Source: Amoebophrya sp. A120
Taxonomy: Eukaryota; Protista; Dinoflagellata
Length of the DNA: 64,000 bases
Assembly (NCBI GenBank): GCA_905178155.1
Contig: CAJINV010000003.1
Coordinates: 2,499,065 to 2,563,064 of the forward strand
Direction: 5' to 3'
Shown: positions 12,356 to 64,000 of the stretch, in pieces
Layout of the letters: every line of letters starts with the position of its first letter
How positions within the stretch are numbered: position 1 is the first letter of the stretch
Made by a program: the position numbers and the translations under genes
The notes under the pieces: model-generated
The model's input: the letters and a program-made list of their open reading frames with translations, nothing else
Told to the model about the DNA's origin: nothing
Database searches by the model: none

Positions 12356-13480
12356 ATGAGGGCGGCTAAGCCGAAGCCCCTGCTGCGGCCGTTGCGCGTC
12401 CTCGTGTCCTCGGGGGTGCTGGCTACAACTTCTACCGGACTCCGGCTGCCGCCGATGGATCAAGACGAGTTTTTGACGAAGCTGGTCGCGGGTCCGCCGC
12501 CGGTGGAGGACCCGGAGAAACGGATCGAGGAGGCGACCAAGGCCCGCGAGGCGGAGCTGCACAAGTTCGGGAAAACGCTCCCGTTTACTATCCTGAGTAA
12601 AAACGTACCCACACCAGAGTCAGGATAGGGATTTTGCAACACAAACCTAGGAGTTTTGTGAGCCACGCATGACAAGTTGCACTCTGTAGTGTAGTGCAGG
12701 TTAGCAAGTGCAGCCGCGTCACAGATTCATCTGCTCCTCCTGTTCGCAGCATCACAAATTCCAAAACACAATTGGAAATGGCTCTCATGGGGATGCGCAT
12801 TACGCGTCTTCCTGTCTTTGCAAATCTGCATTACAACTCTGGTGTGGGGACGTTTTTCCTCAGGATATTTACGCCGCGCCACGAGCCCTTCCAAATGTTC
12901 AAGGAGAGCTGCATGGCCTTCGTCGAGGAGAAGGCGGAAATATGGATTGCAAATATGTCTGGGTCTGGACGAATACACACTTGTGATGCGGATTTTACAA
13001 ACCATGAAAATCTCTCATGCACAGGCAGCAAAAGCTGGCCACTTTATGTCACCAGAATGGGGCATTTGTCATGCAGATTCGGCATTGCGAAAGCTTCGCG
13101 AAATCTGTGATGCTAGAGCTTCCATGGCAGGCCTTCTGTGTCATGCAAAAGCAGCATGACTCTTCCAGACCCAGACGTATTTGCATTTGATAGGAAAAAA
13201 GCGGGTACAACCCGGACCGCCTGCACTTCTTCCTCCCGAAGTGCACCTGGGGGGAGCCGCTCTGCGGGGAAATGCTGGAAAAGCTGAAGACCGTGGTCGC
13301 CGCCTTGGCCCCGGCGCCGGCGGGATCATCCGCTGGATCTGCTGCTGGATCGGCTGGATCATCCGCTTTCGCACCAGAGCCCGCTCCGACACTTTCGATG
13401 CAACCACCAGGTGGAAGCGGACAATCCGGATCTGCACCTTCCTATTTTGAAGAGGGCGTCGAGGAAGTGATGAAGGTACT
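12356..13480 (+). CDS. hypothetical protein interrupted by two TIR introns (3' end uncertain)
   Basis: Removing 12589-12867 and 12941-13192 (+5 nt each) gives ...FGKTLPFTPRHEPFQMFKESCMAFVEEKAEKSGYNPDRLHFFLPKCTWGEPLCGEMLEKLKTVV... Confidence 0.65.
12589..12867. mobile_element. TIR introner-like element, family B
   Basis: TATCCTGAGTAAAAACGTACCCACACCAGAGT...ACTCTGGTGTGGGGACGTTTTTCCTCAGGATA; flanking DR TTTAC/TTTAC. Confidence 0.9.
12941..13192. mobile_element. TIR introner-like element, family A
   Basis: TATGGATTGCAAATATGTCTGGGTCTGGA...TCCAGACCCAGACGTATTTGCATTTGATA; DR GGAAA/GGAAA. Confidence 0.9.
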
Positions 13481-14843
13481 GAAGAACACGTGTCGATTTT
13501 CGCATTATAACTACGTCCGACCAAATAAACTACTTTTCGAGCCTGTAGTGATCTTCATCTGTTTTGAATTAGTAGTAGACGTGCAAATCGCATCGACATT
13601 GCGACAAGAAATAAAAAGGAAAATAACTACTACTACAACAGCCTTCGCCGTTAGCGGGGTTCTGCGGGCAGGTCTTTCATGTGCTGCAGCAGCGGAGAAT
13701 GCACGAAGCCATCCGAGACATTGTTGCGGAAGAAATCATATGTTTTGTAAAAGTGGTGTACGTGTAGAATCCGATAAGAGTCCTTATAATTTTTGAAGGA
13801 AGCGATGTCTGTGGCGACATTTTGTACTCATGTGGCGACACAAAGTTGTTTCGCCGGAAGATGTCTTGAGGATATAAAAATGCCTCATTTTTGGAGCGCT
13901 ACGCACGACAGCACTTTTGCAAATGATAACTCAAGCACGGCGCGGGGTCAGCGAGTTCTGGAAGTGCTGGAAGTTCAGCGGTCCCACCGGTTTAAAGCCT
14001 TTGCATGGGATAAGTTCGTGACCGGCGAAACAACTGGATCTTTCCGGGCGGTGTCAGCGCAGCAGCTCTCTGAAACTACGGGAAGACGAACTGCACCACA
14101 TGAAGAAAACGCCGACGCGGGTCCTGGAGGGCGGATCCAGTTCTTGCCTACTTTTTGTTTTTTCCAATGCGCGTTCCTGTCGCGCATTTTGCGCTCTTGC
14201 GAATGAGCAGGATGCTGTTGTATTTTGCAAAAGAAGCATACTACAGTCATGAATCGCAGTAGAAGTGATGCGCGAGCGCGTTTATTGCCACGTTAGTTTC
14301 TTCCAACATTTCTGGCACTGAAATACCTTCGAAGTTAGAGCCAACGGCTCACGATTTGAGAACTTCGTTCTTTGAACTGCGAAAGCGCAACTTCGACCTT
14401 TGCGCTCTGGTCGCAGTGGGTTCATATCCGTAGAATTGTGTCACCCGCAGAAACACTGCGACAGCGCAATTACACTGTTTCCCGGGCTTTCAGCTGCACC
14501 TCATTCTGAATGTACGAGGAGTTTCTGATTTGGCAGCCAGCGCAGAGCGACTAGCCCGTCTGCCCCGTGGTCTGCTTGTCTTCCCTGGTTCGCAGCCGAG
14601 TGAGACGAACGTGCAGAAAGTGCAGCAGACAGAGCGGTTGAACATAGAGAGATGGAATATATCGGTTCAAACGTTTAGAATCTAAACACCAAAAAAGATC
14701 GAAGACGATAACGAAATGAAAAGAAAATTATGAAATATGTTGAATGCATTTGCAAGCGGTTGATCGTTTGACAGGGGCAGCGCACTAGATAGTGGAGTCG
14801 GTGATGCTGATATAACACCACCTTCGTCTCGAAAAGGATCAAG

Positions 14844-16879
14844 ATGGATGGCATTCACCAGGTTGAGACCGTGTCCTCTGTGGCGACCTTAGGACCCATC
14901 CTTCGGGAGCCGACTGTGGTGAATCAGCCCACGGAAGTGGATCGACGGGAGGAGTTGCTGGCGCGCCGGGTAACCGAGGGTCCACCCGGAGCGGGCGCAC
15001 AGGTCATTGCGCGCACCGTGAATCCCAGCGCTGCAGACGTGTATGCCGGTGCGGTACCTGCAGCTTCAAATGGCGCGGCGGGTAGCACGACTTCTTGAAG
15101 TTGTACCTGAGCTGATTCATGATCAGGGTCCTTGCCGAGGGCAGTTCCTATCAAATTTGTTCGGTTTTGTGTCTGTGACCGAACTTGATTTTGTTGGACA
15201 ACGACAGACAGTTACTCGCAGGCCATGAGAGGCGAGCAAAGGGTTGATTTTGTTGGACAACGAACAATAGAGGAGCAACGGATTGCGCCATAATGAAACT
15301 ACGTACAGACGCTCTGGCAACTGCATACTGAAAATGGATGTACTTCTTGAGAGAGGACTTCTCCGTGAAATTGAAATTCAAAATTCAAAACAAGGTCTAG
15401 CTTTCACGGACGCTGATGCAGAGCGGCAAGACCTTTTGTTGCGCATACACAGCCAGGATGCGCGCATTTTGGAACTGAGACGACGGTGCAAGGCAGAGCG
15501 TGAGCAAAAGTCTAGAACGCTAGACGAGCTCAGGAAGCGCATGCTCGCGCTGGAAAGCATTGTGGTAAAGAACGCTACATGACACTTTGTTTGACTGTAT
15601 TTTAATCATGCTAATTATCGCATAAGTCGAGAAAATAAAAAAGCGCAAAATTTGCTTTTGGTTTTGGCATCAACATCACGTCTTTGCTCGTTATCGTGCC
15701 TTCCGTGGTCAGCCGGGCAATCTAAATCAACACAGCTTGCCAGCAGGCTGGTACCCGTGAACGAGCCTCCAGCGCAGAAGGCCCCAACAGGCGGAAAAGA
15801 TCTTTTTCTGGAGCGAAAGACGACGCAAAAGTATACAGCTTTTCTGGACTTCCATCGCCTTGGCCTCCTGAAAATACCGCATTAAAACTTTTGTCTTGGA
15901 AACTTTCCGGTTTACAAGCTGTGCCGTTGAGTTTGCATAACTATTGCTATTCATCCGAGACCGGTGAAGTGCTTAAATGCTAGAAGTATCTTTTGCCCAT
16001 TTATTACACAGAATACCGGTGGGAACGCGACCAGCGGGTGGGACTGCGAGTGCGCCGGCGCAAGAAGGGATGCAGCAGCCCCTGACAAAAACGACAGATT
16101 TTTTCGGGCGACCCCTCGGGCCGAAGAGCGCAAATACCCGAAATATCGGCACCATGGCAAACGACTACAGCGTATCGAATGCAAAAATGTCTGGGTCTGG
16201 AAGAATGCAAGTTTGTGATGCTTGTCTGGCATGACTCGAGAATCTGTGTTGCATAGGCACGAAAGAGCCCTCTTAACTGTCATGCGAAAAGGCAGTTTGC
16301 CATGCGGAATACGTAAGACATGGCAGCCACAAAATTTGTCATGCATAGCTGCGTATTGCGGCGCGTCTATCATTCACTTTGAGCATTACAAGTTTCCAGA
16401 CCCAGACATATTTGCGATCCATACAGCGCGGCGCCGGACGGTCGCGGAGGCACGGTGTACATCCGCACGCCACGCGGGGAGGGTGCTGCAGGAAGAGCAT
16501 AGAAATAATTCAGCGGATCATGTGGACCAACAGCGAAACGCCGCGACCACAGCTGCGAAGCGTTTTGTGCGGAAGCATAGCACGACCCGGTGCGGGGCTT
16601 TTAGTTTTACATACAACTTGTGGCTCGCGTCCTCTCGCCCGCGTCGTATGACCCGGAGCGATGGAGCGCAGGCGCACTCGCCGTTCGCCGAACCAAGCGC
16701 GAGTTGTGCTGTACGTATGGAATGCATTTCCACTGCGCACCTACATTGATAACGGTTTCGAAGAAGAAAAATTCGACCACTTGATAGAGAAAGAGACCAA
16801 ACGCAACGTTTTTGTTTTCCCAGGCGGCAGCACAAGCACTCCGGGGGCAATGGATGGTCCGCCCATCGGTGCCTTGTAG
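14844..16879 (+). CDS. probable multi-exon hypothetical gene(s)
   Basis: Coding-like pieces 14844-15098, 15283-15582 (coiled-coil) and ~16010-16590 across a TIR element. Exon structure not resolved. Confidence 0.3.
16173..16423. mobile_element. TIR introner-like element, family A
   Basis: TATCGAATGCAAAAATGTCTGGGTCTGGAA...TTCCAGACCCAGACATATTTGCGATCCATA; DR CAGCG/CAGCG. Confidence 0.9.
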
Positions 16880-17610: not shown

Positions 17611-20600
17611 ATGTTTGCCGGACTTTTCGGAGGAAAGGATAAGGCTTCCAAGGAAGCGCCGAAGCCGGAGGTGAATGGGAAGGGAGGCAGCCCCAAGCCG
17701 GAAGCCGCCAGCCCGAAGCCGGAGAAAGCCGCGAGTCCGAAGTCCAGTCCAAAATCTAGTCCGAAAACTGGAGCAAGCCCCAAGGCGAGCCCGAAGGCCG
17801 ATCCAAAACCGGCGCCTGAAAAAGCTGCTGACAAACCGAAAAAGAAGCTTGATATCTCCGTATTTATCTAACGATCTGGTGGAAATCGAAATGTTAATGT
17901 TTTTCATAGCAAAAAGAAAAAACATGCAAAGAATGGACCTTTGTTGATGCCGATAAAAGAAGGTCAAGAGTATAAATTCGTTGAAAAATAACGGAATTAC
18001 CCTTTGTCGTTTGAGAATGATCTCGTCCACGAGGTGTAGAATATGTTTCTACATGATTGATTTGTTGTTTCAGGGCCCACGTGTCTTCGGCGAATGGGAG
18101 GCTACCTATTTGGAGAAGCTCGGCGAGACCGTTGTTTACAATGGGGGCAAGATTCTGCAGCTGGGTTTCGCGAAAGAGTACAGACTACTACTTGCGTATC
18201 TGCATTTTTGTTGTGCTTGCACTTCTTGCTCTACTTACTTAGTCCGCTCGAGTATGAAGAATATGCACCGGGAGCAGGCTGTCTGTCGCAAATTTCGCAT
18301 GCCTTGAGGCATGCTTACTTAGTTTTTTCCTGCGGAGAGGACGATGCGCATGCGTAATCGATCCCGGTTGTTGTTTTGTGTTTGGAACGGTTTTTATCGA
18401 TGCATTTTTATGCTTCCCTACATACAGCACTTTTGGCGATTTGGCAGCGAAGCACGAGAAGGTCACGGAACATGCTATTTGGACCGATTTGTCGAAGATC
18501 GACACTTTGGAGGACGGGTCTCTGACCGGGCTAGTTTTCGAAGCCACTGCATTTCCAGTCATTGAAACGGTGGAAAAGTTCGTTCCGAAGGTAAGTACTA
18601 CTAAAGGCGTGTACTTTGTATAGTTTTATGCTGTTTAGTTCCTTTTCGTTTTCCTCGCTCATCGGCGGCACACGAGAACCGGGTGCGTGGCGCCTCATCT
18701 GTATCGCACGATGGGTAGAAGCAAGTTGTAGACCTTCACACACTTCTTGCAGATGTAATTCAGTATGTTCGCAGGCATGTTTTTTTATCCGCACATACTT
18801 ACATGGTCATGAAATAAAATTAAAATGAAATCCATAACAGTTGGCTGCAAACGCTACGGTAACGTTTGACAATCTGCGAGTTTTGGGTGAGATGAAACAA
18901 GAGTTCAAGCGGTGGGACGCCTTGTGGAAGAGAACGCAGGTAGTCATTTTTTATTCCCTGTCACGAATGCATATACTTTTACTTTTAGTTTTACGTACAC
19001 GCACTGGCACAACTCAAGCTCATGCCCTCCTGTGTGCTGCAGGATTTTTGTGCAGTAGTACCTATTCGTTGTGATTGGTTTTCGTGATGGTTTGTGATTA
19101 AAGAACAACGAGGAATATTAAGAAGGCATAAGCATGTTGATCGGCTGTGTCTACTTCCTATGGACGTCGTGCGTCAAGCGTGAAGATCGATGCTGGCTGA
19201 GCGTAGCTTATATCTCATTTTGTTTTCATTTCTCGCTTCAGGTTCCGAAGTTGCGGCAAGCGGGTCTGTTAGACCGTGGCTTTAAGCTGGTTCCCGTGAC
19301 GGTACCGGAAGAGTGCAAATACTACGAGGACAGCTACGTGATTGTGCCGCGGCTGATCAAGAAGTCGCTCCGAACCGTGAAGTTTTTCGAGATCAGCAAG
19401 TTGAACCCGGACTCCACCGCGTTTTCGCTTAAAGTGAAGGTCGTATCGGTAGCAGAGGACGGAAAGTCTTCCGTGATTGGCGACACCACGGGGACCTGCG
19501 TCTACGAAATCCACGAGTCCAACAAGGAAACCGTCACAGTGGGCGAAACTTTGGAATTGCGAAATGCAATGGTAAGTATTAGAGATTCGAGATATTTGTT
19601 TGCTTTTCACCCCATAGGACGATTAGTTGCCCGTAGTTGTTAACTTTCCTTTGTCTCACTGCAGTTCGGTGCAAGTCAACGTCATGGTCAATTATCATCG
19701 TCCCGAAAAAATAAAACAACACACGACTTTCACTTTCCTTCATTCTCTTCGCAGGTCCGCATGACAAAGGACGGACACATTCACGTGTACACGAACAAGT
19801 GGGGTAAGGTTGCAGCGGCCGACGAGAAGCTTGAGGGCGAAGTGAAGTCGGAGAACGACGTGTCAAAAGCCAAGTACGTGTTTGAGCCCCCAGCCCGGGA
19901 GAAGAAGGGTAAGGGAAAGAAGGACGAGAAAAAAACCAAATCCAAGAGCCCCGCGGGAAAGAAGGACAAGACGGAACCGAAGTCGGAGGAGAAGAGTTCC
20001 GCTGAAGACAAGAAGACTTCCAAGAAGGCAAAGGGCAAGAAGGGCAAAAAGGACAAGAAGGAAACCGCAGCGGCGGAGAAGCCCGCCGAGGAAAGCACCA
20101 CTACTTCCAAGAAGAAAAAGGGCGAAGGCAAGAAGAAAGAAAAGGAGGAAAAACCTAGTAAGGCGGCGGAGAAGACGGAGGAGAAGACGGAGGGTGCGAC
20201 GCCGAAAAAGTCCCGCAAGGACCGCAAGGCCGAAGGGAAGAAAAAAAAGAAGGAAGAAGTATCAAATGTAAAAATGTCTGGGTCTGGAAGAATGCGCGAT
20301 TTGTCATGCAGCTTTTCCATGACCCATGAGGTCTGGAATGCAGGACCTAGCATGACAGATTCTGTGCGACATCTCTCATGCGCATCCTGCATGAGAAACT
20401 GCATCTCGGTTAGGTCAAAAGTGGACAGCTTTTGGCACTCATGCAACACAGATTTTTGCATGCTTCAGATTTAGCATGACAAGTTGCATTCTTCCAGACC
20501 CAGACATTTTTACATTTGATAAGAAGCGGCTGAGTCCAAAAAGGCGGAAGAGAAGAAGAAGGTTGTAGAGGAGGAGAAGCCCGCAAAAAAGAAGGGGAAG

Positions 20601-23120
20601 GGGAAGAGCAAGGACCGTAAGAGTTCGCCCGCAGAAAAGAAGAAAGAAGTAGAGAAGCCAGCGAAAAAGGAAGAGGAGGGCAAGCGCGGAAAGAGCAAAA
20701 AAGGTACTTACTCCTATTTTTTTATGTTCGATGAACATGATTTCGTCAAATTCTAAATCTGATATACAATAGAAGAAAGAGTAGTCTTGTAGTGATGTGG
20801 TCCTCCCACCGAGAAATTGACATGAAAGCGTTGGATCCCAACTTGTTTTTGTTTAGGTAAGGGCAAGCGCAGCTCGGAGACTTCTGACGACGCGCCAGCT
20901 CGGGGACGCTCCAAGGGCAAGGGAAAGAAGGACCGATCAGACTCGCCCAAGGGAAAAGGAAAGAAAGGTAACTCGGCTATGGTTGAAAAGATCTGATGAC
21001 TTCGAACATTCTATATGTTCATGATGAACTGGTGCGACCTACAACTGGCACCAACTTTTGTGCGAAAGGAAGTCCCACCCCACTGGCAGTGAAAGTGCCC
21101 GCGCGGATTGATATGTAAGGACTAGCTAGGAATAAATGATAAAAGGTTCTTGTATTCCACCCGAAAATTTTGATACAGGGAAGAAGAGCTCCTCAAAAGA
21201 CGATTATGATGGAAGCGACAGCAAGGGCAAGAAGGGCACGAAGGGAAAGGGCAAGGGAAAGGGCAAGCGCAGCAGCTCTGATGATTCGTTGCCCGGCAAA
21301 AAGGGAAAGAAGGACGGCAAGAAGGGAAAAGGCCGCAGGTACAACAATTAGCGCGTTTGGTTAGAGTTGTTCATATTTATGTAAAGTTTTACGCTGGAGC
21401 GGAAGATTTTATGCTGCAGTGGATGAACAGGTGATCGCTCAACTCCGAAAAAGCTGCACTTGCCGCCTTGATCCCAGTATACAAAAATTGTTTATTACCT
21501 ACCATGCTGCTGTTTGTATATTTTTAGGTACAGTGACAGCGATTCCTCGCCCGATAAGGGAAAGGGCAAGAAGGGCAAGAGCATGAAGCGTGGTGGTAAG
21601 TACGATAGCGATTCGTCGGACGACGACTACCGCAAGGGCGGCAAGAAGGGCGCAAAGAAGGGAAAGCCGGTATCTTGAGGAAAAATCTCCACTCCCTATA
21701 CTGAAAATGAAAAAGAAAATTTCCGATGCAGATTTTTCGTGGCCACGACAAATCAGCTTTGTCTTCTTGCAAGGAGGTAAGTCCAGAGGTGTAGTGCTTC
21801 CACCACCATGCGAACGATTTCTCATGCTGTTTGGCCTACAGGGCGGGCGTTTGCCATGCTAAAAAAGTAAAGAGCCCACCTAACGGCGCCCCTGCTACAC
21901 AAGCTACAGTGCCTCATTGCAAGACAGAGCTCACTATACTTGTGTACTCAAATCCGGAATCCAGGTCGTTTCATTGCGAAATCACCGAGAGCTAAAGACC
22001 GGGTTGTAGGCGCTTTAGTCATGATTTTATAGTGCTTCTACAGCGACGCTCATCAGGCCTTAGAAGACTTCCTTGTTTTCAATATGGGAGGGCGGGGGAT
22101 TTTTCATTCGCATAACCGGCGTACTACGACTCCGACTCGGATTCGGACTATGGGAAGGGAAAAAAGATGAAGGGAAAGAAGGTATCCTGAGTAAAAACGT
22201 CCCCACCCCATAGTTGTCATGCAGATTTGCAGTCACAGGAAGATGTGTAATGCGCATCCCCATGAGAGGTCTTTGCATTGGTGTTTTGGACTTTGTAATG
22301 CTGTACACAGTATGAGTAAATGGATTTGTGTTGCGGCTGTACTTGCTAAACTGTACTACAATACAGAGACTGGCAAGGATAAACATCTGTCTGTGCTTCC
22401 AATGCGCTGATGGACTGTGCTCTGCCAAATAGTGAAGTAATTTGGACTGCTCCAGTTCTGGTCCCGTTGCTGTATATTGTGCTCGGGTGCTGGGTGGAAA
22501 GGTCCAACAAATATGTTGGCGTGTGTGTGTGTGAGAAGAAAAAAGTTTGGAGTGCCAGGTCCGTTGGGCCCGGGGTGGCGGCGTCTTTGGGTTGATCAAC
22601 TCACCCGAAACACAATGCCATTCCCGCAGCAGCACAGTCTGTTTATGTCATGCGTGACTCCCAAAACTTCTCGACTTGTGTTGGGAGATCCCCATCTTGA
22701 CTGTGGCGTGGGGCCGTTTTTACAAATGATAGAAGGGCGACAAGAAGGGAAAGGGCAAACCGGCCTACTACGACGATAGTTCCTTATCGCACGAAAAAAC
22801 TGTTTCACTGTAAACTTGTAATGCAGAAAATGCATCTGAGAAGTGTTTGTCTTGCTACACATGCAAGACAGTAGATTTTTAGGCGTGTTTTCCCTTAGGA
22901 AGCTCGCATGGCAAATTTTCTCTGTGATGTAGAACAAACTTGTGATGCAAAACCTGCAAAATCCTTACAGTGAAACACTTTTTTGATACGATATTCCTCC
23001 GATGACGACTACTACAAGGGCGGCAAAAAGGGTAAGGGTAGTTCTTACGGCAAGAAGGGCAAGTACGAGGAAGACTACAAGGGCAGCAGCAAGAAAGGTT
23101 CGTATGGGAAAAAGTACTAA
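17611..23120 (+). CDS. fusion protein: degenerate guanidinoacetate-methyltransferase(GAMT)/Rmt2-like domain + SSB-like OB fold + Lys/Gly/Asp-rich tail
   Basis: GT-AG introns (e.g. 17860-18073, 18178-18427) plus 4 TIR introns. Spliced text: GEWEATYLEKLGE..GGKILQLGF..TLEDGSLTGLVFE..TFDNL..RTQVPKLRQAG..VPEECKYY (GAMT-like); LNPDSTAFSLKVKVV..IGDTTG..LELRNAMVRM..VYTNKWGKV (OB fold); KGKGK/YDSDS repeats to the stop at 23120. Confidence 0.75.
20260..20521. mobile_element. TIR introner-like element, family A
   Basis: Perfect ~36-bp TIR TATCAAATGTAAAAATGTCTGGGTCTGGAAGAATGC; DR AGAAG/AGAAG; joins KKEE|AAESKK. Confidence 0.95.
21671..22114. mobile_element. TIR introner-like element, family D
   Basis: TATCTTGAGGAAAAATCTCCACTCCCTATACTGAAAA...TTTTCAATATGGGAGGGCGGGGGATTTTTCATTCGCATA; DR GCCGG/ACCGG; joins KGKP|AYYDSD. 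Confidence 0.85.
22183..22731. mobile_element. TIR introner-like element, family B (long copy, inverted relative to 12589)
   Basis: TATCCTGAGTAAAAACGTCCCCAC...GTGGGGCCGTTTTTACAAATGATA; DR GAAGG/GAAGG; joins GKK|GDKKG. Confidence 0.85.
22785..22993. mobile_element. TIR introner-like element, family C
   Basis: TATCGCACGAAAAAACTGTTTCACTGTAA...TTACAGTGAAACACTTTTTTGATACGATA; DR TTCCT/TTCCT; joins DDSS|SDDDYY. Confidence 0.9.
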
Positions 23121-35211: not shown

Positions 35212-35368
35212 AGACTGACATTCCGGCACCAGATGCAGATGTGAAAGATCTGCTCATTAACTCTGCGGGGTGGAATGGTGACAAGAACGCGGCCGACCTG
35301 GCCTGGCAGAAGAGCGGAGGCGATTTCGGCGACGCTGTCAAGCTGCTCACAAACTGGAAGCAAAAAGG
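35212..35368 (+). CDS. exon of an unresolved multi-exon hypothetical gene
   Basis: AG-preceded, GT-followed coding-like stretch TDIPAPDADVKDLLINSAGWNGDKNAADLAWQKSGGDFGDAVKLLTNWKQK. Confidence 0.35.
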
Positions 35369-48883: not shown

Positions 48884-49785
48884 CATGTCAGGCAGCTCTA
48901 CTTCCAGACATACACGAGCTGTAGACTGATGCTGCAACACCAATTTTCTCCCGGTTCTTTGTTCGTTTTTTATTGTGCTTCACAGAAACTTTTTTTTTCT
49001 GGTTTCTTTTTTTCGTTTTTTCAGCGTCTGCTCATTTATTCGGTGTCGGTGCTGCAGATTTTTTTTTGTGCGAGGGCTGCATGATATTGATGTAATATCA
49101 AAATGCAAAAATCCAAACCCCTCGGCAGTTTTTCACACGTTCTTGCATATCTTTGTTGTCATCATGTTTTTGAAGGAATCAATTGAGTTTGGCTCTGATC
49201 GTGCGGTTTTTTCAAGAACTAGCCGAATTGTTAAACTTCAGTCAACACCCCGCCATTGCCGTTCCTAGTACTCGTAGGCATTCATTGTATGATAGACATA
49301 GATAAGTTTCTATTTCTAAATCCTATTTGTGTGTTTATGTTTTGCCTAGTTGTGGTTTTGAAAGCAAGAAATTGTGGAGGAACGTTATGGAGTTTCAAGC
49401 GGAGCGACATGTGATATTCCCTCTCCCCTCTGCTCCTCTTGGAAAAGAAAACGTAGCAGTTGCACTAGTTTCTCAGTGCTGTTATAAAAAGAAAACGTGT
49501 AAAAACTAAAACCCGGCCTAATTAAGAAAAGCACACGAGAGCATGAGCATCACTTACCGCAAAATCAAAACGAATAGAATTTCCCACATGAAAACTGTGA
49601 CTAGCAGTTTCTCGGTCCGTGCGCATCCAAATATTTAGGTTGATTGTTAGTTGGCGCGAGCGGTCTTGCAGCTAAAGAGTAAAAAGACGCTGCTGGTGCA
49701 GTGAGTAGTACTTAAACACGAAGAGCAGTTGTAGAGATACGAGAAATTTGGCTGCCGAAATTGTACGAAGAAATATAAGTGAAAG

Positions 49786-52700: not shown

Positions 52701-54033
52701 TGCCAAAAATAATTGCTCTCTGTCTTGATGCTAGGGTGTAAGAGAAAAGAGACTAATTCACTGTGAATTTTATTAACGAAAAAAGGTAACGTTAGCGCGC
52801 GTGCCGTGGGTTCGACTATCGTGCGACAACTTTTTTCCGAAGGTTGGAAAGCTTCTGCAGGAACAGAACATCAAGATCGTCTACGCGCAGGAGTTGATCC
52901 ACGGAGACGCCGAATTGAGCAACCAGATTCCGTATTTTTTCTCTGTTTTTGAGTGATTGTGGAACTGGTACGTAGCGACATTGTTTTTCTTCTCGATTGG
53001 TTCAACAGGTTAAGGTATTAAACAAGCTGCCGATTGTTCTTGGTGCCATAGCCATTCGCAGCAAAATGAAATACTGATGAAGATGACGCAGCCACAGCAT
53101 AGACATGAAAATGTAGAAGAGCTGCCGTGTGGCTGTTTCGTTCCTTCTTCTTTTTCTTCTTCAAGCGGAGGATGTTCGCACGAAATAGAAACAACCGAAC
53201 CACAAATCTTTCACTTCGTCTTTCTAGGTCGGACGCCGCGGGTCAAGAGCGGTACTGGACAGCGAAGAAGCAACTAGCGATTCAGCGGGAAGTCTATGAA
53301 ACTGAAAAACGCCCCCTGCCCAACAGATAAATCGCTAACCATTTAAGTAAATCAAATAAGACTGTGACATGAAGCCATTTTCTCAAAGCGTGACGGAACG
53401 CGACGGAATTCCGTAAGATATACCGGCTTACCCTCTCGTCGCTTAGCGCCGGCGCCCCAGACATCGCTGATGTGATGGACGGCTGCCACCTTTACTGCTA
53501 CCCTACGCATTTTTACGAAAGAGAGCATTTTTTGCCCACCGGCTCTGTGCGTAGAAAATGGCAGTGATAGGGTACTACTACTTACTGTGCCGTTGTGAGA
53601 CGCTAATCGTCGATGTCAGGGAGGCCTTTTTCAGGATGATAAACGGGAGTTTTTTTACAGCCAGTACCCCGGGCAGTCGTGGAAGAACGTGATCAGCATC
53701 GGGGATTCGGACTTCGAACGAAAGGCGACCCAGCTGACCATGCAGGAATACAGTGTGGGGTTGTCTGACGGCGCGTTGCGGACCAGCCAGAGCCGCGGGG
53801 AGGAGGACCAGATGTGCATGAGCGGGTTCGTGGGCAACCACTACCGCCGGCTGCGCACCAAAACCGTGAAAATGTACGACTCCCCCCGCATCAAAGACCT
53901 GGAGCTGGAGATTCAGCTGCTGAAAAAGTGGCTCACTGCCCTGGTGCAGCTGGATTCCGGCCTCGACGTCGATCTGGAGGACGATGAGCGCCTCGCGGAA
54001 ACCCACCGGCTGCTGACCGGGGAAATTTTGTGA
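49786..54033 (+). CDS. HAD-superfamily protein of the alveolate/stramenopile DWDDT type
   Basis: Reconstructed: AKDQTILVFDWDDTLFPTSWVRHYMN|LHWKYPL..ANEV|EQFLLAAMQRGRVVI|VTLARVPWVRLSCDNFFPKV..YWTAKKQLAIQREV|EFFYSQYPGQSWKNVISIGDSDFER..RLRTKTVKMYDSP. N-terminal exons (49786-51720) are uncertain. Confidence 0.8.
50458..50652. mobile_element. family F element with a rearranged left arm
   Basis: Right end is the reverse complement of the 46945 left end; DR ATACT/ATACC; left TIR is replaced by the local repeat after TATGCAGC. Confidence 0.6.
50728..50981. mobile_element. TIR element, family A
   Basis: TATCACCTGCAGAAATGTCTGGGTTTGG...CCAGACCCAGACATTTTTGCAATCCATA; DR GATCG/GATCG. Confidence 0.9.
51037..51362. 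mobile_element. TIR element, family D
   Basis: TATGGTGGGGAAAAATCCCCCCTCCCCATA...GGGGGATTTTTCACTTTGATA; DR TGTAC/TGTAC. Confidence 0.88.
51805..52126. mobile_element. degenerate TIR intron (singleton family)
   Basis: TATCAT..GCTATTGTAGT...ACTGCAATAGC..ATGATA; DR decayed (GAATC/AGACC), but +5 removal restores the HAD frame. Confidence 0.6.
52226..52583. mobile_element. TIR introner-like element, singleton family with ~50-bp TIR
   Basis: TATGG..TGTCAGGATTGAAATCGTCAAAGTTGAAAT..TTTGTCATGC...GCATGACAAACTATTTCAACTTTGACGATTTCAAACCTGACACATCCATA; DR GTTGA/GTTGA. Confidence 0.92.
53295..53641. mobile_element. degenerate TIR intron (singleton family)
   Basis: TATGAAACTGAAAAACGCCCCCTG...CAGGGAGGCCTTTTTCAGGATGATA; DR decayed (AAGTC/AACGG); +5 removal gives QREV|EFFYSQY. 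Confidence 0.7.
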
Positions 54034-55899: not shown

Positions 55900-58475
55900 A
55901 GAATCAGAACCATTGCAGACATGAATCTGTGCTCAGAGAACTGAGTGAAAAAGCATGGTTCGTAGAAGAGAAGCGGGACGACAAAGCATGCCAAGATCTG
56001 TATGCCGAGATGAGTGAAGAGCAACTGGCTGGACAAAAAATCACCACCTGGTGTGACTTTTTTCCGCGAGTAAGAAGCTAAGTAAACCGTTCGTTGCTGT
56101 TAGCCTCACAAACGTCAAGGCGCGCGCTCATCCTGATCCTGACGAAGTTGCATATGCATAAGCTGCAGAATGCGCTAGTTGGGGTATTGTCAGTACGCGT
56201 TCAACGTCTTCGCCTCTGAAAAGCTCAGCATCTGATGCACACGCACAATTTGCGCATTGGGAGTACTTGCCGTCCCGCTATTAATGTGCACCACGATACC
56301 GATACGATTTAGAAAGAAATATCCTGGTATTGCGATGAATAGTTACTTTTCATACTAAACTACAGTCTGCTGCATATATTTCGCCCGGTATAATTTTTCT
56401 ACAACAGGTACACTCGTGGCGGCGTTGGATGGAAACACACAGCGTCGCGATGTGCAAGTGACCGCAGCCGGTTTATCCAAAGTTGAGGGTGGAGGTGATC
56501 CCGATGCACGCGAGGATGCAGAGGCGGAGCACACGGATGAAACCCCCGACGCTCACACAAGCACACACACACACACACACAGAGGGTAGTATAGATCTGG
56601 TCTTTATGTTCTTCATCATCTTCTTGTGTGTGAAAGACCGTGATACCACAGCAATCGTCACTTATACTCTCAGACAAAACTCGAGAATGCCTTTCGAAGA
56701 GTTGTGACGATGCACCTGCAAGAATTTCTCACTCTGTTTCCAACCCCGCTACAACACTTCACAGGCAGAAAAAGGGACGCCTAGTTCATCATCGCAGGCG
56801 GCGTCTTTCGTGCAGGAGAAACAGAAGGAGTTCGAGGTGGCGGCGCGAGACGAGATCACCACGTTTACCACGAATAGCCCACTCTCCGAAGACTACGTTC
56901 TGTACCTCCAGAACACGCAAGCGGCGAGAATGTTGGGCGGGCGCATCAAAAGCGGGCTGAACTTGACGACGACGCAGTGGGACAACGTCGAAAAGAACGC
57001 GCTGCTGTTCCCAATAGACATTCTTCCCCCAGTCTATGCGGTGCAGTTACTGCGCACCTACGTCGTTCTCGACAAGGACGCGTCCAACACGCTATCCAGG
57101 CGCGAGGTGGAAAGCACGGCTGTTTTGTTTTGCCCCTTGGTGCCGTGGACGACGGACTCGACCGGAAGAGTGTTATCGGCCGCAAATGTGTCTGTGTGGT
57201 CTCTGGAATAAAAGTGCTAGACTTTTTTTGTCGTGCTTCGCTAGCATCACTTTTGAGTTTCGGCGTGGTTGCATTCTGAAGCGCTGTTTGTCAGCCGGCA
57301 ACTCTAAAACGTCTCATTTTTGGCCGTTGATTCATAATATAATATTGACGCGCCCGTGTTTTCGTGATTCTTCACCCTGCAGCATCACACGTCTCCAGAA
57401 CCAGACATATTTGCAATGCATATGACGATCATGGCAGCAACGTTTTGTACCTGTTCGACATTTCCGGCCTCTTTGTGCTCTCGTTTACGGACTACGCGTG
57501 TTTCTGTAGCAAAATTTCCGCCTGCAGTGAACCGCTACACAGGAGCTCCCTCTTGCAGTACCACGAGGAGGAACGCCGGTTGGTGTCACATGATGGTGGT
57601 TCTTCTGGTGCGGTCCGACTCTCTGAAGCGGAGTCCTCGAACTCCTTCCTCGAGGTAAAATTTGTCACCGATCTGATGTTGCCTTTGTCTTTGTGTTCTT
57701 TGTTGTAATTTTGAGGCCAAGTTATATGAATATGATTTACTTCATGTTGATATAAAAAAAAGGTGAAATTTGTCTTGGGTTCCCTCCTCGTGGCCTACAA
57801 GTTCTATGAACTGGCGCAGGCCCTTCTCGCAGCTCTTCACACTGTGCACACGGTTGTGCACACGGCGCATGCGGCTGGCCACGCTGCCCATGCGTATGTT
57901 CATTTTCCCCACCCTCCGTCTAAAGGCCTGAAGACTGCATGCGAAAAGCTCGTCAAAGTAGTGCACCAAATGAGAGACGCAGTCGACGGAACCACAATTC
58001 ACACAATTGTACATGAGACACAATACATGTTCAAGAAGCTTGACAGCTGGGCGGGAATCAAACACGTCGTGGAGAAAATCTTTAGCCTCCTCGACATCAA
58101 AGCACAGGCTCAGTCGCGCCAAAACATCGAGGCGAGCATCGGAAACATGGAACACGACATCAAGGAGGCAGAGGAAATTTACAACCACTACCTCCATCTT
58201 CACCAGCACGGAAAGCACATGAACTCGGGGAAAGAGAAAGAGGCGCTAAAAAAATGGATAACGCATCTCACTGGATATGAATGGACTGGCAAAGGCAAAA
58301 CTACTGGCCTAGCCCAGAGGAAGAATTGAATTGGTTAATTGCCGAAGAGGAGAAGGAGCATACCAAAGTTTACAATTCTTTGCAAGTTTCACATCGCGCA
58401 TATGACGAATCGCCGGCCGATTTCACACGTAGCCTCAAAAAAAAACTCGGGCTGCGTCGACAAGAAGGTGGTTGA
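55900..58475 (+). CDS. multi-exon hypothetical protein with an EF-hand-like loop and a His-rich region
   Basis: ORFs 56810..57211 (LDKDASNTLSRREV), 57364..57708 and 57763..58329. The first two join across a degenerate TIR element. Termini uncertain. Confidence 0.45.
57174..57422. mobile_element. degenerate family A element
   Basis: TATCGGCCGCAAATGTGTCTG..GGTCTCTGGA...TCCAGAACCAGACATATTTGCAATGCATA; DR lost (AGTGT/TGACG), but +5 removal links ORF 56810 to ORF 57364 in frame. Confidence 0.65.
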
Positions 58476-59376
58476 TGGTTGTTATGAAAAAAGATGACGG
58501 AAAAGAACGCGGGCTCCACTAACGACTGCTGAGTACTTAAGCGAGCAAATCAAATATAGGACGTCTGTGATTTCGCAAATTGCGAGAGTGTTAAGAAAGA
58601 GCAAAAATAGAGCCACGGCATCTGGCTAACGCGACCGCAATAGATCCGTGGTTTCTTTCTTCTTCTAATTCTTGTGTCCCAGTGCCAGTCGTACGTCGTC
58701 CCCGATTATGTCACGTATGTGAAGTCGTGAGTGAATACAATTCACTGAGTTGTAAGTTTCGTGAAGATGGCGGACGTAGAGTCGTGTCGTCGCAATTCAG
58801 GATTGCGGCACCGTCACTGCAATCGGTTTTTACACTTGGAGGTATTAGCACTACTTCTCGGGAAGTTTTAACTTTTCTTTTCTCTTCGTTGTCGTACGTG
58901 GGTTGCTGCTGATTTTTCATTTTCCTATTCGTATTTCATCAAAAGCGAAGCCTCTCTGGTGAATCGTTTTTGTTTTTTCCAGACCAGTTTTTTTTTTCGT
59001 GTGGATGGACCACGTGGCAGAAGGGACACCAGCTGCGACCGCCTATAACTAATTGCAGGTTGGGGCAGGGGCACCCGGGATGACGTTGTACTACTAATAG
59101 AATTCTTCTTCAAGAACTGAGCTTCCGGCAGTGTCACTTACCAGACTATGTAAAACATGAATTTTTCGTGAACTACCGACTTGGAGGTCATCCTCGATCT
59201 ATTGAAGATTTACTATAGATGGTTCTACTGATTCTATTGATTTCATGAGCAGTTGTCTCAAACAAAAACAAAATCACAAATCATTGATGGAACCAGCATG
59301 GGCGGATCCCGTTCGAATCCGAGGATCATCTAGATCGTAGAATCCCCTGATCACGACGAAAGTCGGCGGCGGCAAC

Positions 59377-62300
59377 ATGCCGGAGGACAGCTCTGCCGCG
59401 GGGGCCGAGGTCCTCGGCGACCTGGATCAAGCGAGCGCCGGGTCGCCGCTGGGCAAGCGGTCGGTGGTAGATATGGTGAACCTGGCCCAGCCTAATACGC
59501 TGGGGAAGGACCAGGCTCTCCTGAACGAGGACGGGGAAGCAGGGACCGAAAATGCGCAGGACGGCGGCATCAACGACGGGGCCATGGCCGTGGAGATGTG
59601 GTATTGGAACACCGCGTATCAAATGTAAAAATGTCTGGGTCTGGAAGAATGCAGATTTTTGTCATGCTGTTTTTGCATGACGCAAAATGTCTGTCATGGA
59701 AGCTCTAGCATCACAGATTTCGAGAAGCTTCCGCATTGCTTAATCCGCATGACAAATCCCCCATTTTGGTGACAGGAAATGGGCGCCTTTTGCTGCCTAT
59801 GCATGAGAGATGTGTCTGTGTTGTGAAATGCGCATCACAAGTTCGCATCCTTCCAGACCCAGACATTTTTGCATTTGATACTGCGAACGAGTTCAAGTCC
59901 GAGGTGATGTTTTGCAACCCGGTGGACAGTATCCACTGCAAAAATGTCTTGGTCTGGAAGATTCTGAGACTTGTCATGCACGTTTTGCATGAGCCATGAT
60001 GTCTGTGATGGATGCCCTAGCGTCACAGATCTTTTGCGGGCTTCTTGATGCCTATTCCGCATGACAAATGCCCTCTCCGCGTAGCAAAAACTACATTGCC
60101 TTTGCTGCTCATGCAATACAGATTTTTTCTGGAATCCAAATGCAGCGTCACAGGTTGTGGATGTAGTCTTCCGGACCCGGACATATTTGTATTTGATAGG
60201 CAGCGATACACCGAAGCTGATCATCCCCCTGGAGGTGTTCGACAAGATGAAGAAGGTGTACAACGAGAAAACGCGGCTGCTGCACTCGCGGAAGAACCAG
60301 TTTGACGAACTTTTGACGCTGTTCCGCACTGTATCGTACGAAAAAAGTGTTTCACTGTAAGGATTTTGCAAGCTTTGCATCACATGTTTGTTCTAGTACA
60401 CCAAAGAGAAAATTTGCCATGCGAGATTCCGAAGGGAAAACACAGCCAAAAATCCACTGTCTTGCATGTGTAGCAAGACAAACACTTCTCAGATACATTT
60501 TCTGCATTACAAGTCTCCAGTGAAGCAGTTTTTTTTTGCGATACACCATGCGCCGGCAGTACTACCACGACCTGCAGGGCTTGCGGGATCTCCTGAAGAC
60601 CGCACGGGAAGCGCAGGAGCTCCGGTACTTAACCTATTTCTACCGTAGGAACAGATACTTGAAACCTGACGCGAGGCATGACGGGTTGTGATTGAATCAA
60701 AAATGTCGCATCAAGAACATCCTCCAACGAATGGAGAAAAAGAAATTGTAATTGAACAAATGTATGTGGATGTGGTGAAGTATAATTAGAGTGTATAATC
60801 CATTCTGGGAAGGAGTTTATTTGTTGAACCTGCAACTGTATATGACCTTGATTTCTGTTCGTCGCACAACATACAGAGAAAACGGCGGGTACTTGGACCC
60901 GCGAAAGCAGGCGCGGATGGCGCGCATGGAATCGGTCGTGATGAACCGGGAGGTGCACTACTTTAATGTTTTGGACGTGGTGGACCCCGAGTTCAAGGAG
61001 ATCTTGATCGCGGAGTGCCGGCAGTTTCACAAGGAGCTCATCCTCGAGAACGCGGCCTTGGCGGACCAGTTGGCGGCGCTGGGGATCGGGACGCTAACGC
61101 TCGAGGAAAAACTGCGCATGTTCATCGCGGAATTCGAACTCAGCGAGATTGTCAACCAGTTAGCGAAATTCGCCCCGGGTGACACGGCGCCGCAGTCGGT
61201 GCGCCGCCGGTACCTGTATCCAAGAAAAAAACTGTGCTAGTGTCACCTTCTTTGGATGACAGCATCACAAATTTGCTCTACGTGACAGAGAAAACCTGTC
61301 ATGCGAGGCTCGTAAGGGAAAACAGACATGAAAAAAGAACTTCATGGCTGCCTGACATGACAGGTGTAACTCTGTTGCATGTTCTGCATTACAGAGTTAC
61401 ACCTACAGAGTTTTTTTCTTGCATAACCTGCTGTCGCTCTTCAACGCCGCCGGTATTGAAGAGCAGTTCGCAGACGAAATCATCGCAAAGTAAGATTATT
61501 ACGCTCGCACTCGCTCATCTTCTACTTTGCGGTCTTTACAGAGACGGATCCATATTTAACTTCTGGTTTCATCGCTTCGTTTGACTAATCTATGTGGTTT
61601 TCTTGAAGATTATGCGAACTTTGTTCTCAGCGCAAAGTAGCCAGGAGAATATTTGAAATAAACAATTCCGGAGAAGGACTGAATCGACCAAAAGAAATTT
61701 GTCTTTGGCAGGTACATTGATAAGACTGCTGGGTCTGACGCTCCGAAGGACCCAACGGAATCCGAAGAATACAAGTCCTTGAAAGAGAAATACGACGAAC
61801 TCGACGAACGCCGCGGGGACTTGATGGCCGAACTGGATGACTTGCGGGCACAGGTGTCCGAAATCTCCGACATTAAGGACGCGGAGATGAGTATCCAAGA
61901 AAAATAAAACTGTGTTAGTGCAGGTGTCTTCTACTTCAGGGGACAGCGTTACAAATTCGTTCTGCATATGGCAGGAAAAGTCTGTCATGCGCAGCTAGGA
62001 CGCGAAAATCAAAACACGTAATATGAAAACAGCGCGATATGGCTGGCCAGCATGACATTGTGTAAAATTCTTTGCGTTTTTTTTTATCTGCATCACACAC
62101 ACACACAGTTTTTTTCTTGCATAATGAGCGACCTGCGTATGGAGTGCGACCGACTGCGGTCCGAGGCCCTGTCCGCGCAGGCCGCCGTGCCCACGGAGCC
62201 CCAGGTGCCGGCCGCCGAGCTTGCGGCGCTGCAGGCCGAGCTGGCCGCGGCAAAATCGGATCTGGACGCGGCGCGCGCCGAAGTGGTCGCCAAGGACGCG

Positions 62301-64000
62301 GAAGTATCCAGTATTCGGGCGGAGCAAGCCAGTTCCCCGGTGGTGGAGGATCTGTCGGGGCCGCTGCGCGAGGCGGAGGCGCGGCTACGAGCCATGACGT
62401 CCGAACTGGAGGATTACCAATCCGGAGCGAAGGTGGCCGCGTCGGTATCTGCGGCAAACGAAGAGGAAATGCGGCGGCAGATCGAGGAGGCCAAGGCGGC
62501 GGCACGCGCGGAGGCGGAAGAGGCGGCCAAGGAGGAACTGGAAAAGACCAAGTCCATTCTGGCCGAAACGCAGAACGCGAATGTGGAAGATCCAGAGTGG
62601 TCTAACATCAAGCGAAAGTACTCCGAAGCCTCGGCGAACTGGGTGGATGAGCTCGTTTCAAGCAGGGTATGCATGTCCTTGATTGTGAATTAATTTTCCA
62701 AAGATAAAGAAGTCGCAGCTGCAAAACCAAAAGTAAAACCCGTTCGTTGATGATTTATTAGAGGCCTCGTTTATTTGAAACTCTGCGCAGTTGTTTCTCG
62801 CGATAGAAAGTAGCAAGTTGGTGTAATTCTTCATTCATGAGTTACATACTGTTACTAACTCATAAAACCGCACCGCCGTCGTCGTCGAAAGAATAAGAAT
62901 TTACTTGGGAGACAAGATCCTGTAGCCGGTTTGTCGAGAAACTGGTTCTTGTGTTTGTGATCTCCTACCTACGTAAACGTACTTATCTAAGTATCTCAAA
63001 AAAAAATTGAAATTTTGTCAATTTTTGCAGGAACGGGCGGAGTCTCAGATTTCAACTTTGACTAAGGACCTTGACCACTACATATCCACCGCAAATATGT
63101 CTGGGTCTGGAACGATGCGAACTTGTGATCATGCGCATTTCACAACGCATAAAAATGAAAATCTCTCATGAATAGGCAGCAAAAGGTGCCCACTTTGTGT
63201 CACCAAGATGGGGGATTTGTTATGCGGAATGGGCATCGCGGAAGGTTCTCGAAATCTGTGATGCTTCTAGGCCTTCCATGACAATCCTGCTGCTTCATGC
63301 AAAAAGAGCATGACAAAAATCTGCATTCTTCCAGACCCAGACATATTTGCACTTGATACTACAAGAGCGAGTACGACAAGATCAACGAGGAAGCGGAGGC
63401 GATGACAGCCGAAGTGGCGATATCCTGAGTAAACGAATGTCCCCACGACCCCAAAGTCAAGACGGAAATTTTCTAGGACAAGCCCAGAGCTTTTGAGCCT
63501 CGTCACGCATGAAAAATTTGGTTTTGCAGTTCCTTAGTCCTCTTGCGCAGGAGCTCGTAGTCCGGACGCATGACATTGACAAGCCGCTCCATTTTTTTTA
63601 TCCAGATTAGCGCATGACGATGACGACAGAGATTCCTGATCATCACTACAAATAATAATGAATGCCTTTCATGTAGTAGTTGGAGAGCCGGAGCCGCAGG
63701 AGAAACATTTTGAACATGCAAACTTGCATCTCAAATTTGGCCTGGGGACGTTTTTCCTCTGGATAGGCGAAGATGCAGCTGGAGGTCGAGAACGCGGCGG
63801 CGTCCATGTCAGTCGTGCATGCCACCGAGGTGGGCGGCGACGGCGACAGCAAGGCTGCCCGTGAGGCCATGCGCAGCTACCAGGCCTTATCCCACAGAAA
63901 AAAGCAGGTGGCATGGCATGTGTGTAATACAAAAAAAATACTAGTATACTTTATTGAGATGAGAGAAAGATCTGTCAACATGGATGATGGTGTGTACCAA
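59377..64000 (+). CDS. coiled-coil hypothetical protein with at least 8 TIR introns and 3 GT-AG introns (runs off the window end)
   Basis: Continuous frame: ..WYWNTA|NEFKSEVMFCNPVD|SDTPKLIIPLEV..LFRT|VRRQYYHDL..QELR/ENGGYLDPRK..RRYL|LSLFNAAG..KDAEM|SDLRMEC..DLDHY|KSEYDK..AEVA|KMQLEVEN. Confidence 0.8.
59617..59880. mobile_element. TIR introner-like element, family A (inverted relative to 12941 and 63083)
   Basis: DR CCGCG/CTGCG. Confidence 0.92.
59930..60198. mobile_element. TIR introner-like element, family A
   Basis: DR GACAG/GGCAG. Confidence 0.88.
60332..60543. mobile_element. TIR introner-like element, family C (inverted relative to 22785)
   Basis: TATCGTACGAAAAAAGTGTTTCACTG...CAGTGAAGCAGTTTTTTTTTGCGATA; DR CACTG/CACCA. 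Confidence 0.88.
61217..61425. mobile_element. TIR introner-like element, family E
   Basis: Close homolog of 42203; DR ACCTG/ACCTG. Confidence 0.92.
61892..62123. mobile_element. TIR introner-like element, family E-related
   Basis: TATCCAAGAAAAATAAAACTGTGT...ACACAGTTTTTTTCTTGCATA; DR ATGAG/ATGAG. Confidence 0.9.
63083..63358. mobile_element. TIR introner-like element, family A
   Basis: DR CTACA/CTACA. Confidence 0.92.
63421..63765. mobile_element. TIR introner-like element, family B
   Basis: TATCCTGAGTAAACGAATGTCCCCA...TGGGGACGTTTTTCCTCTGGATA; DR GGCGA/GGCGA. Confidence 0.9.
63888..64000. mobile_element. probable left end of a further TIR element (truncated by the window)
   Basis: Coding-like sequence breaks at TATCCCACAGAAAAAAG, the same TATC-N-A-run start pattern. 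Right end not visible. Confidence 0.5.

What the first reader, a model, noticed from the sequence alone, without database searches (positions are those of the whole stretch)
12589..63765. Multi-family system of TIR elements that act as non-GT-AG introns: remove element + exactly 5 nt
Seen: 32 complete elements (161-549 bp, at least 6 unrelated internal families) share one grammar: 5-nt DR | TAT(C/G)..A-run ... T-run..ATA | 5-nt DR. Most sit inside exons. In every case with a checkable frame, deleting the element plus one DR copy restores it. This rebuilds conserved motifs of CobW (KTIN|HGAPIY), LicD (GAIRHHSL|IPW) and the HAD protein. Sliding through the DR gives canonical ends only for 22183 (GT-AG) and 47367 (GC-AG). 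The same genes also contain ordinary GT-AG introns, so two removal routes appear to coexist. Established: inverted-repeat/direct-repeat introner elements with non-canonical ends have been described in Amoebophrya, so the class itself is probably not new, but to my knowledge the removal mechanism is unresolved. Inference: MITE-like DNA transposons with a 5-bp target duplication are made harmless by a structure-guided excision that exactly reverses the insertion.
Basis: partly seen in the sequence, partly recalled or inferred. Interest (0 to 1): 0.92.

Follow-up and report, generated by a model that had tools for sequence, protein, structure and literature searches.

The report
Transposon introns cut at fixed offsets
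Genes of the marine parasite Amoebophrya A120 are riddled with already described transposon-like inserts that transcript assemblies lack exactly; where the cut can be pinned to the base it lies one base before and four bases after the insert's inverted ends, so these inserts are likely removed by a fixed ruler rather than by normal splice signals.

Summary
I list 34 elements (161-549 bp, TAT...ATA ends); 20 have an exact 5-nt direct repeat (DR), against 0 in 30 null sequences. The window is Amoebophrya sp. A120: a spliced model equals a named A120 protein. These are that strain's published introner elements, so the class is known. RNA-like contigs skip element + 5 nt at 10 of 11 elements laid; contig lengths support four more. 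The added result is a fixed register: the intron starts 1 nt before TAT and ends 4 nt after ATA. Four mismatched DRs keep the upstream copy. Two almost DR-less elements are cut at exactly this register, and orthologs agree at one more. The DR therefore does not guide removal; 1+4 merely equals the duplication. One family is removed in both orientations. Hairpin dependence is not shown, and the families share an internal motif. A relaxed spliceosome is my preferred machine (inferred); an endonuclease/ligase route remains open. The source paper calls the sites variable, although its Table S4 fits this register. The scan noted similar introns in other dinoflagellate genomes.

The parts
12589..12867 (+). 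element, DR 5/5; predicted intron 12588-12871 (CT..TA)
   Evidence: frame only
12941..13192 (+). element, family A, DR 5/5 (AT..AA)
   Evidence: frame only
13739..13928 (+). element, DR 4/5; host model weak
16173..16423 (+). element, DR 5/5 (GT..GC)
   Evidence: frame only
20260..20521 (+). element, family A, DR 5/5 (GT..AA)
   Evidence: frame only
21671..22114 (+). element, DR 4/5 (GT..CG)
   Evidence: frame only
22183..22731 (+). element, DR 5/5; the only GT..AG at the -1/+4 register
22785..22993 (+). element, DR 5/5 (TT..CC)
   Evidence: frame only
27340..27590 (+). element, DR 4/5, no A-run type end
   Evidence: frame only
32582..32858 (+). element, DR 4/5
   Evidence: frame only (1470-codon ORF)
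38586..40366 (+). host gene CobW, 415 aa after removal of two elements
   Evidence: Pfam cobW 2e-54 and CobW_C 1e-19; homologs ungapped at junctions 119 of 120 and 118 of 119
39186..39447 (+). element, family A, DR 5/5; RNA joint skips 267
   Evidence: 3 of 4 runs
39865..40124 (+). element, DR 5/5; RNA joint skips 265
   Evidence: 4 of 4 runs
41660..48885 (+). host gene with eight elements, 1601 open codons after removal; LicD-like motif (recalled, no Pfam hit on the piece tested)
42203..42415 (+). element, DR 5/5; not bridged by any contig
42733..43051 (+). element, DR 3/5; RNA joint skips 324, upstream copy kept at DR positions 2-3
44046..44308 (+). element, family A, DR 4/5; RNA joint skips 268, upstream copy kept at position 2
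44350..44679 (+). element, DR 5/5; RNA joint skips 335
   Evidence: 1 of 4 runs
46048..46312 (+). element, family A, opposite orientation to 39186; RNA joint skips 270
46374..46635 (+). element, family A; RNA joint skips 267
   Evidence: 4 of 4 runs
46945..47105 (+). element, DR 4/5; RNA joint skips 166, upstream copy kept at position 4 (GT..AC)
47367..47652 (+). element, family A, DR 5/5; RNA joint skips 291
47755..48026 (+). element, family A, DR 4/5; RNA joint skips 277, upstream copy kept at position 3
49786..54033 (+). host gene, HAD-like motif (recalled); 349-aa model identical to named A120 protein P0121; three GT-AG introns and three element introns
50728..50981 (+). element inside GT-AG intron 50020-51725
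51037..51362 (+). element inside GT-AG intron 50020-51725
51805..52126 (+). old element, DR 2/5, degenerate arms; intron 51804-52130 (CT..AC)
   Evidence: exon sum 428 matches contig; P0121 identity
52226..52583 (+). element, DR 5/5, no A-run; intron 52225-52587
53295..53641 (+). old element, DR 2/5; RNA contig resumes at 53646 = 3' cut exactly 4 nt after ATA (CT..CG)
57174..57422 (+). old element, DR 1/5; RNA contig piece ends at 57172 and the gap is 226 nt = intron 57173-57426 exactly (TT..AC)
59617..59880 (+). element, family A, DR 4/5
   Evidence: frame and ortholog
59930..60198 (+). element, family A, DR 4/5; ortholog residue D fits upstream copy at position 2
60332..60543 (+). element, DR 3/5; both orthologs have M, which needs the downstream copy at position 5
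61217..61425 (+). element, DR 5/5
   Evidence: frame only
61892..62123 (+). element, DR 5/5
   Evidence: frame only
63083..63358 (+). element, family A, DR 5/5
   Evidence: frame only
63421..63765 (+). element, DR 5/5
   Evidence: frame only

Best explanation
These are the published introner elements of Amoebophrya A120, likely non-autonomous DNA transposons with a 5-base target duplication, and transcript contigs lack each bridged element plus 5 bases; where the cut can be pinned it lies 1 base before the opening TAT and 4 bases after the closing ATA, and a modified spliceosome likely makes the cuts. Shown: removal of element + 5 nt, upstream DR copy kept at positions 2-4, exact -1/+4 cuts at two almost DR-less elements, removal in both orientations. 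Inferred: because 1+4 equals the duplication, a new insertion anywhere in an exon and in either orientation is silent for the protein; afterwards the intronic halves of the DR drift while the register stays. Inferred, weaker: the symmetric end motif TAT(C/G)-N6-A-run gives an N-TA donor (13 of 13 GT donors inspected here read GTA) and, read from the other end, a U-run at -15 to -19, so that a spliceosome without U1 and without an AG requirement could place both sites by distance.
For:: 10 of 10 listed joints equal element + 5, in 1 to 4 of 4 runs; allowed registers 3-5, 2-5, 4-5, 3-5 for the four mismatched DRs; only register 4 fits 57174; contig pieces end at 57172 and start at 53646; internal gaps of 226 and 428 nt equal the modelled exons; orthologs have M at 60332 (register 5 would give V) and D at 59930; 22183 is GT-AG at register 4; donors GT 14, AT 9, CT 8, TT 3; 14 different acceptor dinucleotides, AG once; family A in both orientations among RNA-confirmed introns (39186, 44046 versus 46048, 46374, 47367, 47755); all nine 'predominant' A120 non-canonical ends in Table S4 of PMC7789003 have T at +2; most spliceosomal proteins and U2, U4, U5, U6 found in A120, U1 not found.
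Against: All RNA-like runs are one sample and one study, kept as contigs, and labelled RNA only by guess. The two exact cuts each rest on one contig in one run whose middle pieces were not printed; they are read from piece ends and lengths. Twenty perfect-DR elements say nothing on register. Nothing here identifies the enzyme: no lariat, circle or knock-down data. GC-AG at register 3 (47367) and register 1 (63421) would give the same mRNA and cannot be excluded. TAT/ATA invariance is partly circular because I searched for it. Elements 27340, 32582 and 52226 lack the A-run, so the U-run is not universal. PMC7789003 describes splice sites as variable relative to the hairpin.
Confidence: 0.62

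Rival explanations
1. Same fixed -1/+4 register at RNA level, but cut by a non-spliceosomal endonuclease that measures from the terminal RNA helix, followed by ligation, as proposed for Euglena nonconventional introns.
For: Any dinucleotide is tolerated at the acceptor. Long arms fold strongly (39186: z = -9.0). U1 was not found. Euglena introns have a paired motif at fixed offsets N3 and N5-6 and give circles.
Against: No RNA-strand signature in the arms: G-U 29 versus A-C 21, position 4 paired 17 of 32, sense more stable 18 of 34. The exactly cut 57174 folds weakly (z = -1.76) with TAT unpaired to ATA in the predicted structure. The +2/+3 TA shared with GT-AG donors is unexplained.
Confidence: 0.27
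2. The elements are excised from DNA (IES-like or transposase-driven) in the transcribing stage, and the transcripts copy empty sites.
For: The ends are symmetric DNA-type motifs with phased internal sites. The life stage of the DNA run is unknown, and 1507 of its joints were not shown.
Against: DNA-like run X1 holds the elements in unbroken contigs identical to the window (52557-59639, 61378-63202), though it may be the assembly's source. The asymmetry follows the gene direction: upstream copy kept in all four mismatched cases, including family A in both orientations (44046, 47755), whereas symmetric DNA cuts would give mixed outcomes.
Confidence: 0.05
3. The joints are reverse-transcriptase template-switch artefacts across hairpins flanked by direct repeats, and the genes are broken or retain the elements.
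For: Hairpin plus DR is the classical substrate for such skips (own knowledge). Some contigs from other loci carry element ends joined to flanks (loose ends).
Against: Exact removal where the DR is 1/5 or 2/5. One constant length offset. Removal restores conserved proteins without gaps against homologs. Unremoved elements carry stops in at least two of three frames.
Confidence: 0.03

Closest known systems
Introner elements among non-canonical introns of Amoebophrya sp. A120 (Farhat et al. 2021, PMC7789003)
   Same: Same organism, IR motif TAT + 7 nt + >=3 A, 3-5 nt DRs, about 240 nt, many families, mixed with GT-AG introns, RNA-supported.
   Different: Nothing as to class. The paper's text says there is no clear splice signature and that sites vary relative to the hairpin. 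The fixed -1/+4 register, its independence of the DR and the shared internal motif are not in the sections I read; its figures (Fig. 3, S19-S25) were not visible.
Euglenid nonconventional introns (Nomura et al. 2025, PMC12501133; review PMC11282704)
   Same: TIR-ended, MITE-like, non-GT-AG introns with a complementary end motif at fixed asymmetric offsets from the cuts.
   Different: Euglena: N3-CDG ... CH'G-N5-6|R, with circles reported. Here: N1-TAT ... ATA-N4, where the offsets sum to the 5-bp duplication; excised form unknown.
Fritillaria borealis MITE-derived non-canonical introns (as reviewed in PMC11282704; original not read)
   Same: TIR/TSD-derived introns that an adapted U2 spliceosome appears to remove.
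   Different: Preferred ends AG-AC/AG-AT and a TAC target; here no acceptor preference.
Micromonas/Aureococcus introners (as reviewed in PMC11282704; Huff 2016 not read)
   Same: Non-autonomous TIR transposons whose removal takes one TSD copy and restores the frame.
   Different: They carry one canonical site and co-opt the other from the TSD; here neither site needs to be canonical.

Membership tests
Amoebophrya A120 introner elements | Located in the A120 genome | tested here: met
   349-aa model identical to named A120 protein P0121
Amoebophrya A120 introner elements | IR motif TAT + 7 nt + >=3 A at both ends | tested here: met
   68 ends: TAT 68, C/G at 4 in 67, A at 11-15 in 52-63; paper
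Amoebophrya A120 introner elements | 3-5 nt DR at the exon/intron boundary | tested here: met
   20 of 34 exact 5-mers, 11 with 3-4 of 5, 3 decayed
Amoebophrya A120 introner elements | Removed from RNA with non-canonical ends | tested here: met
Amoebophrya A120 introner elements | Repeated families | tested here: met
   Clusters of 12, 4, 3 and 2 in the window; depth in the DNA-like run far above unique sequence (not a copy number)
MITE / non-autonomous TIR DNA transposon | TIRs, fixed-length TSD, no coding capacity | tested here: met
MITE / non-autonomous TIR DNA transposon | Cognate autonomous transposase element | not testable with these tools
   No genome held. PMC7789003 found no transposase in A120; PMC12130899 reports TIR elements with LTR-like ORFs
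MITE / non-autonomous TIR DNA transposon | Empty orthologous site with one copy of the 5-mer | tested here: inconclusive
   Ortholog proteins are ungapped at junctions, but no ortholog DNA was available
U2-type spliceosomal intron | GT/GC donor and AG acceptor | tested here: not met
   1 of 34 at the supported register
U2-type spliceosomal intron | Lariat formation, dependence on U2/U5/U6 | not testable with these tools
   Contigs only
Euglenid nonconventional intron | N3-CDG ... CH'G-N5-6|R code | tested here: not met
   Ends are N1-TAT ... ATA-N4
Euglenid nonconventional intron | Removal depends on end pairing; circular product | tested here: inconclusive
   Pairing tests neutral; product not testable

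The most novel reading that the evidence does not exclude
Amoebophrya A120 has a signal-free splicing route co-adapted to one transposase chemistry: a dedicated machine reads the symmetric TAT/A-run ends (and perhaps the shared internal TTGTVATGC sites) and cuts at -1/+4, exactly the 5-bp target duplication, so thousands of insertions of many families are silent in any context and orientation; the catalyst is not the spliceosome.
Probability: 0.25. Interest if true: 0.88.

Novelty: already known. Interest (0 to 1): 0.55.

Why it matters
The class is published, but its removal is an open question, and the source paper left the cut positions undefined. A fixed -1/+4 rule that survives loss of the DR turns 'variable, signal-less' boundaries into a precise code (N-TAT ... 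ATA-N4). It explains why insertions are tolerated anywhere in exons, gives a rule for re-annotating tens of thousands of A120 introns, and names the exact nucleotides to look for in lariat, circle or end-chemistry assays that separate a relaxed spliceosome from a new splicing enzyme.

Tried and rejected
No whole genome was held, so there is no genome-wide count and no transposase or snRNA search. The run search listed no holder on record as RNA. Raw RNA runs X9 and X10 laid 120 and 2 reads, all on elements, nearly all at 90-95% likeness and none on exons, so they were not used. Element 42203 had no bridging contig. In one search the DNA-like run swamped the joint table (15 of 1522 shown), so empty sites in DNA could not be judged. 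Idea that mismatched DRs go with a GT donor: 8 of 14 versus 6 of 20, Fisher p=0.16, rejected. RNA-strand bias in the arms: not found. A TIR scan without the DR requirement is noisy below score 25 (null 10-35 pairs at score 15). I kept low-scoring candidates only with a 4/5 DR plus frame, RNA or ortholog support (21671, 46945, 51805, 57174), added 42733, 47755, 46048 and 46374, sequence reading and RNA joints, and dropped the rest (for example 24267, 34850, 40644). One search used a wrong start and is superseded. Pfam gave no family for four short exon pieces of the LicD-like and HAD-like genes. No earlier notes exist on this genome. Literature searches found no paper that states a fixed register; subscription papers (Roy 2023, Henriet 2019) were not readable.
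Full report
Observation. The elements are real. A scan for 5-mer|TAT...ATA|5-mer returned 32 pairs, 20 with true inverted arms. With arms >=12/22 and an exact DR there are 20 in the window and none in 30 resampled windows. Allowing decayed DRs and curating with frame, RNA and ortholog support gives 34 elements of 161-549 bp: 20 with DR 5/5, 9 with 4/5, 2 with 3/5, 3 with <=2/5. Across 68 ends the motif is TAT, C/G, six looser bases, then an A-run. Removing element + 5 nt opens the frame in every host model built, for example 1601 codons across eight elements at 41660-48885. CobW is confirmed by Pfam, and 119 of 120 and 118 of 119 homologs align without a gap at its two junctions. The LicD and HAD names are recalled motifs only.

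Organism and prior knowledge. My 349-aa model of the gene at 49786-54033 is identical to P0121, named by its source as an Amoebophrya sp. A120 protein. Farhat et al. 2021 (PMC7789003; I read the abstract, sections 10, 11, 12 and 16, passages, supplement part 3 and some figure legends; figures are not held) describe in A120 introner elements with 8-20 nt IRs starting TAT + 7 nt + >=3 A and 3-5 nt DRs. They report no clear splice signature, sites variable relative to the hairpin, and no U1. The class, in this genome, is therefore known. Gozashti 2025 (PMC12130899; passages and 20 of 58 A120 rows of dataset file 8) classes most of these families as TIR DNA of unknown superfamily with inconsistent automated TSD and splice calls.

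RNA evidence. Four RNA-like contig runs (X3-X6; one sample, RNA by guess, but empty over intergenic bins and lacking GT-AG introns by length) were laid on 38500-48200. All 10 listed joints skip exactly element + 5 nt; 10 of the 11 elements there are bridged and 42203 is not. A DNA-like run holds the elements in contigs identical to the window; it may be the assembly's source.

The register. Let k be the number of upstream flank bases kept. Mismatched DRs limit k to 3-5 (42733), 2-5 (44046), 4-5 (46945) and 3-5 (47755). At 57174, whose flanks share 1 of 5 bases, the contig piece ends at 57172 and the unprinted middle is 226 nt; only k=4 fits. At 53295 (2 of 5) the contig resumes at 53646, again k=4, and five modelled exons sum to the observed 428 nt. 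At 60332 both orthologs have M, where k=5 would give V; at 59930 the one aligned ortholog has D, which needs k>=2. At k=4 element 22183 reads GT-AG. The intron is thus N-TAT ... ATA-NNNN. Donors are GT 14, AT 9, CT 8, TT 3; acceptors take 14 of 16 dinucleotides, AG once. All nine 'predominant' A120 non-canonical ends in the paper's Table S4 have T at +2, which fits and may mean that the authors' logos already hint at it. Limits: the two exact cuts rest on one contig each, read from piece ends and lengths, and 20 perfect-DR elements are uninformative.

What this means. The DR is a by-product of insertion, not the guide: cuts stay exact after it decays, which also argues against template switching. 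Family A is removed in both orientations, and the asymmetry follows the gene direction in the one informative pair (44046, 47755), which favours an RNA-level step. Since 1+4 equals the duplication, a fresh insertion would be silent in any context (inference).

Mechanism. Tests for a required RNA stem were neutral: G-U 29 versus A-C 21 (p=0.32; 32 of 34 elements, two left out for arm indels), position 4 paired in 17 of 32, sense strand more stable in 18 of 34. Young elements fold strongly (39186, z -9.0), while the exactly cut 57174 does not (z -1.76). The ends may be read as sequence. The other arm supplies a U-run at -15 to -19 in most elements. I therefore prefer a relaxed U2-type spliceosome that places both sites by distance (0.62 for the whole statement; about 0.87 for the fixed RNA register alone), as the review PMC11282704 (passages and section 6) reports for Fritillaria. 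An endonuclease/ligase route as discussed for Euglena, whose introns also have a paired motif at fixed offsets (PMC12501133; abstract, introduction, discussion), gets 0.27. DNA excision gets 0.05 and artefact 0.03. No call identifies the catalyst.

Families. By blastn of interiors there are 18 clusters at 40 bits (12, 4, 3, 2 and singletons). Yet 32 of 34 elements share TTGTVATGC-type sites (114 hits versus 12.8 expected; motif chosen post hoc), which suggests one mobilising or processing protein (inference).

Novelty. Five searches found no text stating the -1/+4 register; PMC12005148, PMC13326754 and PMC12621601 were seen as passages only and do not address it. Roy 2023, Henriet 2019 and Huff 2016 were not read, and the unseen figures of Farhat 2021 (Fig. 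3, S19-S25; the S23 legend says IRs lie '1-5' nt from the sites) may anticipate it. Earlier scan notes report comparable element-plus-TSD removal in other dinoflagellate genomes (unchecked). Verdict: a known system, confirmed, with a sharper and testable boundary rule; interest 0.55.

Noticed in passing
window, inside 32 of 34 elements: Shared internal motif TTGTVATGC / GCATBACAA: 114 hits with <=1 mismatch versus mean 12.8 in resampled elements; exact 8-mers 74 in 9.5 kb of elements versus 9 in 54.5 kb outside. Often 32-43 nt from an end, spaced 31-33 or 39-40 nt, mostly pointing inward (54 versus 22). The motif was picked by eye. Candidate protein-binding sites common to otherwise unrelated families.
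   Followed up: partly
window 46046-46130, run X9: About 110-120 reads of a run that does not cover the window's exons hold only the first 84 nt of a family-A-like element between coding-looking flanks: a truncated copy or partial retention in another strain.
   Followed up: no
window 50020-51725: The GT-AG intron holds three or four degenerate copies of the upstream exon end and donor, two complete elements and an orphan right end at 50652; an orphan left end lies at 49096.
   Followed up: partly
window 38586-40366: This CobW is 69% identical to another named A120 CobW (P0005), and no identical protein was listed among those of 348 aa or more: a second paralog, perhaps annotated differently.
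   Followed up: no
window 28640-29770 and 35797-37000: Blocks unlike their surroundings, with internal inverted repeats (28985-29105, 29726-29769) and a direct duplicate of about 45 nt at 35797 and 36961; possibly other inserted elements.
   Followed up: no
   Followed up: partly
whole window: All gene models built lie on the + strand, as expected from the unidirectional clusters reported for this organism; a - strand host gene to test strand dependence is lacking.
   Followed up: no
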